From Salmonella phage vB_SenS-3, in the sequence record OR896822.1: 64,000 nucleotides of DNA. One strand, written 5' to 3'. Positions within the stretch are counted from its first letter, which is position 1. The number at the start of each line of letters is the position of its first letter. Below the pieces are notes generated by a model. It had not been told where the DNA came from. It ran no database searches and saw only the letters and a program-made list of their open reading frames with translations. Below are positions 20,015 through 24,278 of the stretch, piece after piece. A program made the position numbers and the translations under genes.

Positions 20015-20437
20015 ATGAGTACAGAAAACCGAGTTATTGATATTGTTGTTGATGAGAAAGTACCTTATGGTCTTATCATGCAGTTTATGGATGTTGATGA
20101 CAGTGTATATCTACCAACAGAAGTTCCTGTTAACTTAACCGGATATTCACTCCGAGGAACTATTAAATCTAGTCTAGATGAGAACGCCGAGGTTCTAGCT
20201 AATTTTAAAACTCATATTATTGATGCTACTCAAGGTGCTGCTGCAATTAGTCTTTCCATTGCAGACACTACTAATATTAGTGAAAAAGCATCTAAAGAAC
20301 GTGATAAGTATAACCCAAGACAACGTTTTGCTGGTTATTATGATATCATAATGACTCGTGATGTAATTGGCTCTGAAGTCAATTCTTTCCGTATTATGGA
20401 AGGTAAAGTATACATCAGCGATGGAGTAACTCAATAA
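20015..20437 (+). CDS. tail collar protein (p132-like)
   Basis: 140-aa ORF between pb4-like and fibre genes; same size as T5 p132. Confidence 0.45.
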
Positions 20438-22704
20438 TGGCACTTAAAACTAAAATTATTGTACAGCAGATTATGAACATAGATGACACTACAACTACTG
20501 CTAGTAAATATCCTAAGTACACAGTAGTTTTAGGTACTTCTATTAGTTCTATTACTGCTAGCGAACTAACAGCGGCTGTTGAGGTCTCTGCTGCTTCTGC
20601 TGCGGCAGCAAAAGATTCTGAAATTGCAGCAAAAGAATCTGAAATAAATGCTAAGGACTCTGAGAACCTATCTGCAAATTATGCTAACTCTTCAGAAGCT
20701 TCTGCAACTCAATCTGCTACTTCTGCTACTGAAGCGAAGAGACAAGCTGATTTATCTAAAGATAGTGCTGATGCCTCTGCTATTTCTGCTTCTCAATCTG
20801 CTGCGTCCGCTACTAAAGCTGCAGAATCATCAGCTGCAGCAAAAACTAGTGAGACTAACACTCTAGAATCATCAGCTGCAGCAAAAACTAGTGAGACTAA
20901 TGCAAAAACTAGTGAGACTAATGCAAAAACTAGTGAGACTAATGCAGCAGCATATGCAGCAGCAGCAAAAACTAGCGAGACTAATGCTGCTGATTCCGCT
21001 GCCTCTGCTTCTGACTCCAAAGGATTCAGGGATGAAGCAGAAGCATTCGCTGCACAAGCCTCCACATCAGCATTAGCAGCAAAAAACTCAGAAACTAATA
21101 CAAAGACTAGCGAAATTAACTCAAAAGCTAGTGAAGACGCTGCTAAGCTAGCTCAGCAAGGTGCATCAGATAGCGCGAACACAGCTACGCAAGCGATGAC
21201 CACAATACAGGGTCTTAAGTCCGATGTTGAACAGCTTAAAGCTGACACTCAGACCATTAAAGAAGGTGCGGCGACAGAGATTAGAGCAGCTAAGACGGAG
21301 GCAGTAGGAGCAATTGACACAGCTAAGGTAAACGCAATTGCTGAAATCACCCCGTTAAAACAAGCTGCGGAAGACGCTGCCACCTTAGCTGGACAAAAGG
21401 CAGTAACGGCTACAGAACAGGCTACAGCCGCGGCTGGAAGCGCTACAACCGCAGGAGAACAAGCCGTAGCAGCATCCAGTTCCGCAACTCGAGCTGAGAC
21501 CGCAGCAAACAAAGCTGAACAAACTTTGAGCATATCTTTGTTAAAGGATCAGAACCTTGCAGACTTAAGTGACAAGGTACAGGCTCGTATAAACCTAAGT
21601 GTGGATCGTCTTAAACAGAGCGCTGATAGTTCCCGCATTTATGACCCGACAAACCGCTACAACTTAGTTGTAATGGATACAGGGTCTTGGGGTGTCTATG
21701 ACGATACTAGTAATGTATTTAAACCTTTAGGAGTAGGACAGGGCGGCACGGGAGCTTGGGACGCAGAGGGTGCTCGCAACAACATCGGGGCGCTGTCCAA
21801 AGGTGGTGACACTGCGACCGCCATGATTGCTACTAAACATTCTTATCCTGCTGGCTCAACAGGGCAAATTTTGGGTTGGTCGTGGCGATCAATTGTAGAA
21901 GGCTATGGTATCGGAACGGCGACTGCTGATTTTTACGTAAACCACACAGTAGGAAGCGTCACATATGCCTGCATTAAGCCTACTCGAGTGACCGGTGAAA
22001 GCTGGGAGTATCTTTTTAGCGACTTTGGCGAAATGTCTAATATTAGAAGCCTGATTATTAGTCGTAACACAGGTGCGGCAGGAGAGGCGTCCGGTAACAT
22101 GGAGTTGAGTTATGGGGCGGGGCAGGTGACACAGTACGCCGCTCGTGTAGATTTTTACGATGGAACTGCACGATCTGTTTTAGATACCTACGATGCTACT
22201 CGCTTAACAACTCTCTTACCCTCGGCAGGTGTCATTTGCCGTAGAGGTATTGGTGGTAATTACCAAGCAAATAGCTATTCTTTCTCGTGGGAAAATCCTG
22301 GAGTAGATGTATGGATTGATAGTACTCGTATTGGGCGAGTAACGCTGGATCCTACAAGCGACATTGATTATAAAGAACAGGTTGAGCCATGGGACGGTAA
22401 GAGTGCGTTAAACAATATCAATCAGTTAGAGCTCGTGACGTTTATCTTCAAAGATGATATAAAGCGTCGGGTACGTCGTGGAATCATTGCACAGCAAGCG
22501 GCAACCATAGACCCTGAATACACACACTCAAGCGAGGATAAGGAGGGAAATACAATTCTTTCGCTTGATACTAACGTGCTGTTACTGGATGCGCTTGCTG
22601 CTATCCAGGTGCTAAGCGCCCGTGTCAGTAAATTAGAGTCTTTGTTAGAAGATAAACCAACCACTCTACCTGAAGACCCCGCTCCAAATCAAGACCTTCC
22701 TTAA
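20437..22704 (+). CDS. L-shaped tail fibre protein with C-terminal intramolecular chaperone domain
   Basis: 755 aa; Ala/Ser/Thr-rich shaft with perfect tandem repeats (AKTSETN); C-terminal segment GIIAQQAATIDPEYTHSSEDKEGNTILSLDTNVLLLDALAAIQVLSARVSKLESLL resembles the self-cleaving chaperone domain of T5 pb1 and endosialidases. Confidence 0.7.
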   Translation: MALKTKIIVQQIMNIDDTTTTASKYPKYTVVLGTSISSITASELTAAVEVSAASAAAAKDSEIAAKESEINAKDSENLSANYANSSEASATQSATSATEAKRQADLSKDSADASAISASQSAASATKAAESSAAAKTSETNTLESSAAAKTSETNAKTSETNAKTSETNAAAYAAAAKTSETNAADSAASASDSKGFRDEAEAFAAQASTSALAAKNSETNTKTSEINSKASEDAAKLAQQGASDSANTATQAMTTIQGLKSDVEQLKADTQTIKEGAATEIRAAKTEAVGAIDTAKVNAIAEITPLKQAAEDAATLAGQKAVTATEQATAAAGSATTAGEQAVAASSSATRAETAANKAEQTLSISLLKDQNLADLSDKVQARINLSVDRLKQSADSSRIYDPTNRYNLVVMDTGSWGVYDDTSNVFKPLGVGQGGTGAWDAEGARNNIGALSKGGDTATAMIATKHSYPAGSTGQILGWSWRSIVEGYGIGTATADFYVNHTVGSVTYACIKPTRVTGESWEYLFSDFGEMSNIRSLIISRNTGAAGEASGNMELSYGAGQVTQYAARVDFYDGTARSVLDTYDATRLTTLLPSAGVICRRGIGGNYQANSYSFSWENPGVDVWIDSTRIGRVTLDPTSDIDYKEQVEPWDGKSALNNINQLELVTFIFKDDIKRRVRRGIIAQQAATIDPEYTHSSEDKEGNTILSLDTNVLLLDALAAIQVLSARVSKLESLLEDKPTTLPEDPAPNQDLP
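20824..20990 (+). repeat. perfect tandem DNA repeats inside tail fibre gene
   Basis: 35-nt block gaatcatcagctgcagcaaaaactagtgagactaa occurs twice (20824 and 20866), followed by three exact 21-nt units gcaaaaactagtgagactaat and a degenerate copy. Confidence 0.85.
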
Positions 22705-22712
22705 TCCTAAAA

Positions 22713-22738
22713 TACGCGGCTTCGGCTGCGTATTTTTA
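22713..22738 (+). terminator. rho-independent terminator after tail fibre gene
   Basis: Hairpin TACGCGGC-TTCG-GCTGCGTA (one G-U pair) followed by TTTTT. Confidence 0.75.
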
Positions 22739-22860
22739 TCACTTTTAACTTTACAAAACTTTACATCAGATGCCAGGTAAACTTTTTGTTATGCACTATG
22801 CTTAACTCGTAATATGCGTGTTACATGTGTTTAACAATCAACTCTCAGGAGTGTTTACTA

Positions 22861-23189
22861 TGTCTGACAGGACTCTTTTACCGACCAACATGGGCGGGCT
22901 CGGTGGTGACGGTGTTATGCCTGGTATCGCTGCTTTTAGTGGTGCGCTGATTGATTCCTGGTTAGGTAATGGTGCGGGTGGTCGTGGTGTTGGTGCGGGT
23001 GGTGTGGATGGCGCGGTTTCCGTTGCTAGTACTGCTGCAAACATGCTGACTACTTCACTGGTAAGCGATATCGAATCCATTCAGAGCGGACTGAACAATC
23101 TGGGCCTAACTGTTGTACAGGGTCAGGGTACAACCAATCTGGCAATCGCTAACACAGGCGCAATGAACCTGAACGCTATTACCCAATAG
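22861..23189 (+). CDS. glycine-rich hypothetical protein (moron-like); in-frame TAG at 23187-23189 followed by a 65-codon open extension
   Basis: ATG at 22861 with AGGAG RBS 8 nt upstream; GC-rich Gly/Ala-rich ORF (GGLGGDGV...GNGAGGRGVGAGGVDG); frame stays open after the TAG to TGA at 23385-23387. Confidence 0.45.
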
Positions 23190-23334
23190 AATACTCAAAA
23201 CCTGTTGGCGTCTGTCCAGGGTTTTGTAGAGCTGAACACTGCGATCACCTCCAGCACTAGTACCATCGCTGGCGCGATCTCTGCTCAGTCGTTTGATCAA
23301 CAGCGTACAGCATTCCAGGAGCAACTTGCCACTG

Positions 23335-23358
23335 AAAAAAAAAAAAAAAAAAAAAAAA
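23335..23358 (+). repeat. 24-nt poly(A) homopolymer tract
   Basis: Uninterrupted run of 24 A, in frame within the open extension downstream of the TAG (would encode Lys8). Confidence 0.9.
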
Positions 23359-23554
23359 TATTGCTGCGAAACAAGCCTGAGTCTTGATTATCCTAGCAAC
23401 GCAATGCATGTTCTACTGTATTAACAGTTCGCTGATTCTTAGGCTGTTCTTATGTACAATATGAAAACACAAAATGCAAGAGGTTCGTTTTGCACCCTCT
23501 CAGAAAAAAAATTAATAAAATAAAGGAATTAGTAAAACAACTCCTTACTAAATA

Positions 23555-23592
23555 AGAGAAAACCCCAGTGGATTGTTCACTGGGGTTTTTTA
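23555..23592. terminator. bidirectional rho-independent terminator between convergent late (+) and early (-) units
   Basis: Hairpin CCCCAGTG-gattgtt-CACTGGGG flanked by an A-run upstream and T-run downstream. Confidence 0.75.
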
Positions 23593-23769
23593 TTACTCTT
23601 TACCTCCTGCGATAATACCTAAGTTATACACGGCAAGCATATCACTAATGGTAGGATCTTGAGACTCAGAACACAGTTTAATAAACCCTTCTTCATCCCA
23701 TTGCTCTACATTGCCAAACATATCCACTTTTAGTACTACCTTATCAAGGGTAGGGGGTGCTATAATCAT
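23593..23769 (-). CDS. small hypothetical protein (58 aa)
   Basis: ORF MIIAPPTLDKVV...GIIAGGKE lying between the dUTPase stop and the bidirectional terminator; no convincing SD. Confidence 0.2.
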   Translation of the reverse strand: MIIAPPTLDKVVLKVDMFGNVEQWDEEGFIKLCSESQDPTISDMLAVYNLGIIAGGKE

Positions 23770-23831
23770 ATCATAGAAATTCGGGTGTTGATTAGCATCA
23801 ATCTCTATTTGATTAGGATCAACAAAATTAC

Positions 23832-24278
23832 TTACTTACTTCCTGAGCTTCCAAAGCCGCCTTCTCCACGATCAGTCTCCTCTAGTTCGTCAACGATTTC
23901 AAAATGATTAATTGAGTAGTGTGGTAGTACTACTAGCTGACAAAGTCTCTCGAAATTCTCTAGAGTTTGCATTTCAGAACCGTAGTTAAACAGGTTCATC
24001 TTAATAGTACCACGGTAGTCTGAGTCGATCACTCCTGCGGTATTTGCGATCATTAGTTTACGCTTACCTAAAGAGCTGCGAGGAACTACCAAACCAAACC
24101 AACCTCGCGGAATTTCCACCGCGACACCGGTGTCTATCATAAGGGATTTGCCTGGTGCAATAGCACGTAAATCTGCTGCAAGGTTAGTACCGAAGAATGC
24201 ACGCAGATCCATACCTGCAGCATCATCAGAACCAATCTTTGGCATGCAATCTGGATGGGTTAGTTTAATTTTAATCAT
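23832..24278 (-). CDS. dut: dUTP diphosphatase (dUTPase)
   Basis: 148 aa with dUTPase motifs AGMDL, RSSL, GVIDSDYRG and C-terminal GGFGSSG. Confidence 0.85.
   Translation of the reverse strand: MIKIKLTHPDCMPKIGSDDAAGMDLRAFFGTNLAADLRAIAPGKSLMIDTGVAVEIPRGWFGLVVPRSSLGKRKLMIANTAGVIDSDYRGTIKMNLFNYGSEMQTLENFERLCQLVVLPHYSINHFEIVDELEETDRGEGGFGSSGSK

What the first reader, a model, noticed from the sequence alone, without database searches (positions are those of the whole stretch)
23335..23358. 24-nt poly(A) homopolymer tract in frame with the glycine-rich gene extension
An uninterrupted A24 run is extremely unusual in a phage genome. It lies in frame in the post-TAG extension (encoding Lys8), about 200 nt upstream of the bidirectional terminator. 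Runs of 9 or more A are known to cause transcriptional slippage by RNA polymerase and translational frameshifting, and are hypermutable for length during replication. It could act as a phase-variation or expression switch, or be an assembly artefact.
Basis: seen in the sequence. Interest (0 to 1): 0.6.

Follow-up and report, generated by a model that had tools for sequence, protein, structure and literature searches.

The report
Unstable poly(A) run in dead gene
The 24-A run is real and changes length very fast between sister phages, but it sits inside a broken, non-functional remnant of a tail-fibre-associated gene, so it is most likely a neutral slippage-prone repeat and not a genetic switch.

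Summary
The A24 run at 23335-23358 is there exactly as described and cannot be chance (about 1e-8 expected; the next longest run in 64 kb is A8).

The window is a T5-like Salmonella phage (Epseptimavirus). The stretch 22860-23555 is a decayed copy of a roughly 236-aa gene (phrog_9288). That gene is intact just downstream of the lateral tail fibre gene in T1-like and 9g-like phages.

The window copy carries five lesions:
- Three Gln-to-stop changes: TAG 23187, TAA 23422 and TAG 23440.
- Two frameshifts, each caused by expansion of a short Glu-Lys A-run: tract 1 (A5 to A24) and tract 2 (A6 to A8, 23504-23511).

Undoing these five lesions restores a 224-aa ORF colinear with the intact protein (51% identity, E 2e-72).

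Genomes identical over 706 flanking columns carry tract 1 lengths of 7, 8 and 14. Across 21 clade genomes the range is 6-24 with no frame preference. Tract 2 ranges from 7 to 22 in other lineages.

All three frames close within 21 codons after tract 1, no promoter is predicted, and a close relative has no amber-suppressor tRNA.

Verdict: a hypermutable mononucleotide repeat drifting in a pseudogene. Hypermutability is supported; a phase-variation or expression switch is not. The exact length of 24 cannot be verified without reads. Interest is low.

The parts
23335..23358 (+). Tract 1: the A24 homopolymer. It is an expanded Glu-Lys A-run (ancestral GAA AAA followed by TAT, i.e. A5).
   Evidence: Searches show the sequence. 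Searches give lengths of 6-24 in 21 clade genomes. Searches show A5 (A6 in KKP_3822) in Shivani, SE7, EPS7, BD13 and bobsandoy. One search shows that the protein alignment changes frame across the tract.
23504..23511 (+). Tract 2: an A8 homopolymer and second hypervariable A-run in the same gene relic.
   Evidence: Searches give lengths of 7, 8, 9, 14 and 17 in the clade. One search gives EPS7 A11, BD13 A22 and bobsandoy A12 plus A15 in a local duplication. In Shivani and SE7 the run is interrupted (TAAAAAG).
22860..23189 (+). 5' fragment of the decayed phrog_9288 gene (109 codons, glycine-rich), ending at nonsense codon TAG 23187-23189, which aligns with Gln110 of intact homologues.
   Evidence: One search matches phrog_9288 (E 3.5e-17 alone; 4.5e-38 when read through the TAG). 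(tblastn) gives 54% identity to DanielBernoulli bas08_0030. One search shows the TAG in all 21 clade genomes. One search counts variable sites at codon positions 1/2/3 as 4/9/11 and synonymous/nonsynonymous variants as 7/14, a relaxed pattern.
23190..23334 (+). Post-TAG continuation of the same gene relic, up to tract 1.
   Evidence: Searches show that homology continues through the TAG to residue 153 of the intact protein. One search counts variable sites at codon positions 1/2/3 as 1/5/5.
23359..23503 (+). Gene relic between the two tracts, in a frame shifted relative to the 5' part, with stops TAA 23422-23424 and TAG 23440-23442 (both aligned with Gln in intact homologues).
   Evidence: Searches find 70-78% DNA identity to the 3' part of the intact gene in Drexlerviridae. 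One search counts variable sites at codon positions 1/2/3 as 5/8/5. One search gives 91% identity to Shivani and SE7, against 96.4-97.6% for the adjacent dut and D15 genes.
23512..23555 (+). C-terminal end of the gene relic, up to the ancestral stop TAA at 23553-23555.
   Evidence: the sequence with five lesions reverted gives a 224-aa ORF colinear with residues 1-219 of the 236-aa protein (51% identity, E 2e-72).
23557..23591 (.). Bidirectional intrinsic terminator between the late (+) and early (-) transcription units.
   Evidence: predicts a 16-pair stem with a T-run on the + strand and a 12-pair stem on the - strand.
22709..22736 (+). Terminator-like hairpin directly after the tail fibre gene (20437-22704). 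The relic therefore lies between two predicted terminators.

Best explanation
The A24 run is a hypermutable mononucleotide repeat drifting neutrally inside a pseudogene.

Shown:
- The segment 22860-23555 is a colinear, decayed copy of a roughly 236-aa gene of unknown function (phrog_9288; annotated elsewhere as 'putative sugar-binding protein' or 'putative lateral tail fiber chaperone'). The gene is intact immediately downstream of the lateral tail fibre gene in T1-like and 9g-like siphophages.
- In this T5-like Salmonella phage it is inactivated by three Gln-to-stop changes and by frameshifts at two short A-runs that were originally Glu-Lys codons.
- Both runs vary widely in length between genomes whose flanks are otherwise identical.

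Inferred:
- Once the gene was dead, indels in these runs were no longer purged.
- Replication slippage, whose rate rises steeply with run length, let the runs random-walk upward: tract 1 from A5/A6 to 24 here, tract 2 from 7 up to 22 elsewhere.
- The tract has no role in expression. It is the only kind of place in this compact genome where a long homopolymer can persist.
For: 1. Pseudogene. phrog_9288 matches at 132 bits when the ORF is read through the TAG, against 64 bits without. tblastn with the intact DanielBernoulli and KLB26 proteins aligns residues 1-153 including the TAG, then resumes after the tract in another frame with two more stops. Reverting the three stops and resetting the tracts to A5 and A6 gives a 224-aa ORF colinear with residues 1-219 of the intact protein (51% identity, E 2e-72). 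In Drexlerviridae the intact gene follows the lateral tail fibre gene.

2. No selection on the relic. Variable sites at codon positions 1/2/3 are 4/9/11, 1/5/5 and 5/8/5 in its three parts, against 3/0/7 in the adjacent tail fibre gene end. The relic is 91% identical to Shivani and SE7, while the neighbouring dut and D15 genes are 96.4-97.6% identical.

3. Hypermutability. vB_SenS-3, vaffelhjerte and RA40 are identical over 706 non-tract columns but carry (tract 1, tract 2) = (14,7), (8,7) and (7,9). S113 and PMBT26 are also identical to each other and carry (6,7) and (10,8). The window differs from the first group by 1 nt and carries (24,8).

4. No frame preference. Tract 1 lengths of 6, 7, 7, 8, 8, 9, 10, 10, 14, 14, 15 and 24 fall in all three frame classes.

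5. No rescue possible. All three frames stop 7-21 codons after the tract. No CUA-anticodon tRNA is found among the 28 tRNAs of the close relative PMBT36.

6. No other long runs. There is no other homopolymer of 7 or more in the window or in the remaining 47.7 kb of PMBT36.

7. Precedent. Phage simple-sequence repeats of 6 or more bases mutate by slippage at high rates (Gomez, Barrick & Waters 2025, PMC12633550).
Against: - Slippage rate and direction were not measured. Expansion to 24 and 22 A is larger than usually tolerated in bacterial or phage genomes, and deletion bias would be expected to cap run length.
- Nine sub-clade B genomes all keep A6, so instability is not uniform. This may be a length-threshold effect, but that was not tested.
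- A roughly 700-bp dead gene retained across a genus of compact virulent phages is itself somewhat unexpected and could hint at a non-coding role.
- Whether the 109-aa N-terminal fragment is still made and useful is unresolved (syn/nonsyn 7/14, small numbers).
- The length of 24 rests on one assembly.
Confidence: 0.8

Rival explanations
1. Contingency locus or phase-variation switch: changes in A-tract length by slippage reversibly turn a full-length or extended glycine-rich protein ON and OFF.
For: The tract is hypermutable. It lies in a gene next to the tail fibre gene, a typical place for phase-variable genes. Phage contingency loci at A-runs have been reported for T2 and T4 (PMC12633550).
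Against: A TAG conserved in all 21 genomes lies 145 nt upstream. The ancestral downstream frame has TAA and TAG stops, and all three frames close within 7-21 codons. A second frameshift sits at tract 2. No amber-suppressor tRNA is present in PMBT36. Lengths show no frame preference. Codon-position patterns show no purifying selection.
Confidence: 0.04
2. Length-tunable cis element: the poly(dA:dT) run acts as a promoter spacer or UP element, a DNA-structure or insulator element at the late/early convergence zone, or an Hfq/S1-binding A-stretch in RNA. Length variation would tune its strength.
For: TTGCCA lies 3 nt upstream of the tract and AATATT spans its 3' end, which would make a 9/12 sigma-70-like match if the tract were 15-17 A (read directly from the sequence). 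Two variable A tracts lie in the same 170 bp on the same strand. The relic is retained across the genus.
Against: The promoter scan finds 0 sites on either strand in 22600-23900, against 2.7 expected in shuffles. At n = 24 the spacer is about 25 nt. Nothing but the dead relic and a terminator lies downstream. TTGCCA is absent in lineages with other tail fibre modules. Observed lengths do not cluster at 15-17. The surrounding sequence evolves about 3 times faster than the neighbouring genes. No Rfam family reaches its threshold.
Confidence: 0.08
3. Assembly or sequencing artefact: the true tract is short and the 24 A reflect homopolymer miscalling.
For: Homopolymer lengths are error-prone on most platforms, and the population is probably heterogeneous, so the consensus length is soft. 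No reads are available.
Against: The tract sits exactly at a pre-existing A-run with perfectly colinear flanks. Independent records from different laboratories and countries carry 14, 14 and 15 A here, and 11, 12, 14, 15, 17, 17 and 22 A at tract 2. Platform errors are usually plus or minus 1-2 bases, not a four-fold expansion.
Confidence: 0.08

Closest known systems
Mononucleotide simple-sequence repeats (microsatellites) that expand and contract by replication slippage in non-coding DNA or pseudogenes
   Same: The run is a homopolymer that arose from a short proto-repeat (A5 in GAA AAA). Its length differs between otherwise identical genomes, shows no frame or length conservation, and sits in flanks evolving at a relaxed rate.
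   Different: Runs of 22-24 are unusually long for a virulent phage genome. Two such runs sit in one roughly 700-bp relic, while the rest of the roughly 112-kb genome has none of 7 or more.
Phage contingency loci: T2 agt and T4 rIIA A-runs (Gomez, Barrick & Waters 2025, PMC12633550); hypermutable polyG tracts in Campylobacter phage genes (own knowledge: Sorensen et al. 2021)
   Same: Both are homopolymer runs in phage DNA that mutate by plus or minus n through polymerase slippage far faster than point substitution.
   Different: Those runs (typically 6-12 nt) lie in intact genes, so a frameshift toggles function. Here the host gene is already dead (three stops and two frameshifts) and no frame is open past the tract.
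Promoter-spacer repeats in phase-variable bacterial genes (own knowledge: Mycoplasma hyorhinis vlp poly(A), Neisseria porA/opc polyG/C)
   Same: A poly(A) run of variable length lies with a TTGCCA hexamer just upstream.
   Different: No promoter is predicted, there is no downstream gene, and the hexamer is not conserved outside this clade.
phrog_9288 gene downstream of lateral tail fibre genes in Drexlerviridae, 9g-like phages and Yersinia PY100-like phages (e.g. DanielBernoulli bas08_0030)
   Same: The segment 22860-23555 is colinear with it (51% identity after five lesions are reverted) and has the same position after the tail fibre gene.
   Different: The window copy is a pseudogene. It also lacks the Pro/Cys-rich C-terminal tail of the T1-like proteins.

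Membership tests
Neutral mononucleotide microsatellite in a pseudogene | Length polymorphism between genomes with identical or near-identical flanks | tested here: met
   there are 0 flank differences among vB_SenS-3, vaffelhjerte and RA40, whose tract 1 lengths are 14, 8 and 7. The window differs by 1 nt and has 24.
Neutral mononucleotide microsatellite in a pseudogene | Host sequence is non-functional (disabled ORF, no purifying selection) | tested here: met
   There are three in-frame stops and two frameshifts. Variable sites at codon positions 1/2/3 are 4/9/11, 1/5/5 and 5/8/5, against 3/0/7 in the tail fibre gene end. Identity to Shivani/SE7 is 91%, against 96.4-97.6% in the neighbouring genes.
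Neutral mononucleotide microsatellite in a pseudogene | No conservation of tract length or reading frame | tested here: met
   Lengths of 6, 7, 7, 8, 8, 9, 10, 10, 14, 14, 15 and 24 fall in all three frame classes.
Contingency locus (phase-variable repeat) | Hypermutable simple-sequence repeat | tested here: met
Contingency locus (phase-variable repeat) | Repeat lies in the coding region or promoter of a functional gene, so that a length change switches expression | tested here: not met
   A conserved TAG lies upstream. All frames stop within 7-21 codons downstream. No promoter is predicted.
Contingency locus (phase-variable repeat) | Reversible switching with a phenotypic consequence | not testable with these tools
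   This needs passaging and phenotyping of tract-length variants.
Programmed transcriptional slippage or ribosomal frameshift site | Slippery run at the overlap of two open, conserved frames, with the run length conserved among relatives | tested here: not met
   No open downstream frame exists, and length varies from 5 to 24.
Promoter-spacer repeat | Repeat lies between functional -35 and -10 hexamers upstream of a gene | tested here: not met
   One search finds 0 promoter-like sites. The spacing would fit only at 15-17 A. Only the relic and a terminator lie downstream.
phrog_9288 (gene associated with the lateral tail fibre) | Significant profile match and position after the tail fibre gene | tested here: met
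   One search gives E 4.5e-38. Searches show the same position in intact loci. One search gives E 2e-72 for the reverted sequence.
phrog_9288 (gene associated with the lateral tail fibre) | Intact open reading frame | tested here: not met
   Searches show three stops and two frameshifts.

The most novel reading that the evidence does not exclude
The two length-variable poly(dA:dT) runs are not just tolerated but maintained. They would form a tunable, non-coding element at the junction between the converging late and early transcription units of T5-like phages, for example a rigid DNA-structure or insulator element, or an A-rich RNA site for Hfq/S1. Alternatively, T5-type replication has an unusual expansion bias at A-runs, which would make this locus a natural reporter of polymerase slippage. 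An even less likely variant is that the three stops, all at Gln positions, and the two runs are read through or slipped to make a protein.
Probability: 0.07. Interest if true: 0.5.

Novelty: new member of a known kind. Interest (0 to 1): 0.22.

Why it matters
The main value is as a caution and a tool. The 'glycine-rich gene with a post-TAG extension' and the small ORFs annotated across it in many GenBank records are fragments of one dead gene, not separate genes. The A-run is not a regulatory switch.

The pair of tracts is the fastest-evolving site in these otherwise near-identical Salmonella phages. It could therefore serve as a fine-scale strain marker and as a natural read-out of slippage by T5-type replication.

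It also documents that a lateral-tail-fibre accessory gene shared with T1-like and 9g-like phages was acquired by T5-like phages and is now decaying. That bears on how host-range modules move between phage families.

Tried and rejected
- Exact-pattern scans of IMG/VR and of metagenome contigs with the tract flanks returned only phage H8 and unrelated chance matches. They added no tract-length samples.
- The Rfam search of 22600-23900 at E up to 10 gave nothing near a gathering score.
- The sigma-70 promoter scan found no site on either strand. The TTGCCA-A(n)-AATATT promoter-spacer idea was dropped for that reason, and because it fits only n = 15-17 and is specific to this clade.
- RNA folding of 23359-23595 gave z = -2.7 (+ strand) and -3.1 (- strand), but this is dominated by the terminator hairpin. 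The conserved-RNA idea was dropped once the region proved to be a colinear gene relic that evolves faster than its neighbours.
- Pfam gave no family for the intact or the reverted protein.
- Amber suppression was checked and rejected: there is no CUA-anticodon tRNA in PMBT36.
- A literature search for 'Epseptimavirus' plus 'homopolymer' found no paper.
- My first codon-position count used a start coordinate off by one. It was redone correctly.

Full report
**Observation.** The window holds an uninterrupted A24 at 23335-23358, flanked by G and T. With 30.1% A, about 1.4e-8 such runs are expected in 64 kb. The next longest homopolymer is A8 at 23504-23511, 146 nt downstream, and nothing else exceeds 6. 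A bidirectional terminator is predicted at 23557-23591, 199 nt downstream, and another terminator-like hairpin lies at 22709-22736 directly after the tail fibre gene. In the frame of the ORF that starts at 22860 and continues past TAG 23187-23189, the run reads Glu-Lys7-Ile, not Lys8.

**Identity of the window.** The region 22700-23620 matches 130 phage records, almost all of them T5-like Salmonella phages of the genus Epseptimavirus. The best match is vB_SenS-3 at 98.7%. The gene order is tail fibre genes on the + strand, then dUTPase, flap endonuclease and others on the - strand. The tract therefore lies in the convergence zone between late and early genes.

**What the surrounding sequence is.**
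- The glycine-rich ORF matches phrog_9288, a 234-position profile of unknown function. The score is 64 bits alone and 132 bits when read through the TAG.
- A sensitive DNA search with 23325-23600 unexpectedly hit T1-like phages (Drexlerviridae) over query positions 30-179, which is exactly the stretch between the two A-runs. The hits fall inside an annotated 236-aa gene that directly follows the lateral tail fibre gene.
- tblastn of that intact protein against the window aligns residues 1-153 to 22860-23334 at 54% identity, with the TAG opposite Gln110. After the A-run the alignment resumes in a different frame (ERCCCETNLNIE vs KKYCCETSLSLD), with two further stops opposite Gln residues. These are TAA 23422-23424 and TAG 23440-23442.
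- I reverted the three stops to Gln codons and reset the runs to A5 and A6. This gives a 224-aa ORF colinear with residues 1-219 of the intact protein (51% identity, E 2e-72). It ends at TAA 23553-23555, just before the terminator.
- The whole stretch 22860-23555 is therefore one dead gene with five lesions, and two of the lesions are the A-run expansions. Both runs began as Glu-Lys codons (GAA AAA).
- The family is intact in Drexlerviridae, 9g-like phages and Yersinia PY100-like phages. There it is annotated as hypothetical, 'putative sugar-binding protein' or 'putative lateral tail fiber chaperone'. Pfam has no model for it.

**No selection on the relic.**
- Among 21 clade genomes, variable columns fall at codon positions 1/2/3 as 4/9/11 (before the TAG), 1/5/5 (after the TAG) and 5/8/5 (between the tracts).
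- The last 300 nt of the tail fibre gene give 3/0/7.
- Against Shivani and SE7 the relic is 91% identical, while the adjacent dut and D15 genes are 96.4-97.6% identical.
- The TAG is present in all 21 genomes. The TAA and TAG stops are also present in lineages that carry a different tail fibre gene and keep only the 3' relic from 'CACTG-A5-TATT' onward. The inactivation is therefore old.

**Hypermutability.**
- Tract 1 lengths in the 12 genomes of the closest sub-clade are 6, 7, 7, 8, 8, 9, 10, 10, 14, 14, 15 and 24. Nine genomes of a sister sub-clade all have 6.
- Tract 2 is 7 (six genomes), 8, 8, 9, 14, 17 and 17 in the close sub-clade.
- In other lineages tract 2 is 11 (EPS7), 22 (BD13) and 12 plus 15 in a local duplication (bobsandoy).
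- vB_SenS-3, vaffelhjerte and RA40 are identical over all 706 non-tract columns, yet carry (tract 1, tract 2) = (14,7), (8,7) and (7,9). S113 and PMBT26 are identical to each other and carry (6,7) and (10,8). The window differs from the first group by one base and carries (24,8).
- Tract length therefore changes far faster than point substitution, and the lengths fall in all three frame classes.
- Long tracts appear in records from several laboratories and countries. This argues against a pure assembly artefact, although the exact value of 24 is unverifiable here.

**Functional readings tested.**
- Switch. All three frames close 7-21 codons after tract 1. A conserved TAG lies upstream and a second frameshift lies downstream. 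The close relative PMBT36 has 28 tRNAs, none with a CUA anticodon.
- Promoter. No sigma-70-like site is predicted on either strand in 22600-23900. A TTGCCA...AATATT pair around the tract would have promoter-like spacing only at 15-17 A, is specific to this clade, and has no gene downstream.
- RNA. No Rfam family approaches its threshold. The folding z-scores of -2.7 and -3.1 are explained by the terminator hairpin.
- The rest of the genome avoids such runs. There is none of 7 or more in the window outside this relic, or in the other 47.7 kb of PMBT36.

**Mechanism.** Shown: the tract is an expanded codon-derived A-run in a pseudogene, and its length is hypervariable between near-identical genomes. 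Inferred from established knowledge of slipped-strand mispairing, and consistent with the measured instability of runs of 6 or more bases in T2, T4 and other phages (PMC12633550): after the gene died, indels in the runs were no longer purged. Slippage rate rises with run length, so the runs random-walk upward. The uniform A6 in sub-clade B may reflect a length threshold, but this was not tested.

**Comparison and novelty.** The tract behaves like a contingency-locus repeat in its mutability. It fails the defining requirement that the repeat control a functional gene. It is best filed as a neutral mononucleotide microsatellite, a new instance of a known kind. I found no description of this locus in the searched literature. 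It matters mainly for three reasons:
- It corrects the annotation, because several records split the relic into 'hypothetical proteins'.
- It offers a fast strain marker and a natural slippage reporter.
- It shows a tail-fibre accessory gene shared with T1-like and 9g-like phages decaying in T5-like phages.

**Scores.** Interest is 0.22. Confidence in the neutral-pseudogene explanation is 0.8.

Noticed in passing
window 23504-23511; L043 563-584 (BD13); L044 563-573 (EPS7); L033 763-873 (bobsandoy): A second hypervariable A-run (tract 2) lies 146 nt downstream of the reported one. It is A8 here, A11 in EPS7 and A22 in BD13. In bobsandoy the surrounding roughly 100 bp is duplicated, with A12 followed by T9, and then A15.
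   Followed up: yes
L033, L043, L044 around 520-545 (equivalent to window ~23465-23480): A heptamer repeat (GCAAAAT) is present in 3 tandem copies in EPS7, BD13 and bobsandoy, in 1 copy in Shivani, SE7 and KKP_3822, and in 0 exact copies in the window. It is another slippage-type polymorphism in the same relic.
   Followed up: partly
window 22860-23189 and 23205-23387; annotated CDSs in L003, L004, L007, L011, L034 and L036: GenBank records annotate the dead gene as two to four separate 'hypothetical proteins' (e.g. S113 orf22a/orf22b). These are fragments of one phrog_9288 pseudogene. Whether the 109-aa N-terminal fragment is still expressed is unresolved.
   Followed up: partly
window 23187, 23422, 23440: All three in-frame stops align with Gln in intact homologues (CAG/CAA to TAG/TAA, C-to-T transitions). 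This would resemble stop-to-Gln recoding, but no suppressor tRNA was found in a close relative and the frameshifts remain.
   Followed up: partly
L042 1711-1784 (PMBT36 65711-65784): ARAGORN calls a tRNA with anticodon TCA ('tRNA-SeC', UGA-reading) that is not annotated in the record. It overlaps the start of a CDS just downstream of a homing endonuclease gene. It could be an opal-suppressor-like tRNA or a false positive.
   Followed up: no
L018 1733-1744 (KKP_3822): A G12 run replaces the 3' arm and T-run of the bidirectional terminator in phage KKP_3822. It may be a sequencing artefact or another unstable homopolymer.
   Followed up: no
window ~23330-23334 ('CACTG'); L018-L020 ~1496: Homology between phages carrying different tail fibre modules begins within a few bases upstream of tract 1. 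The module-exchange junction therefore lies inside the dead gene, right next to the A-run.
   Followed up: partly
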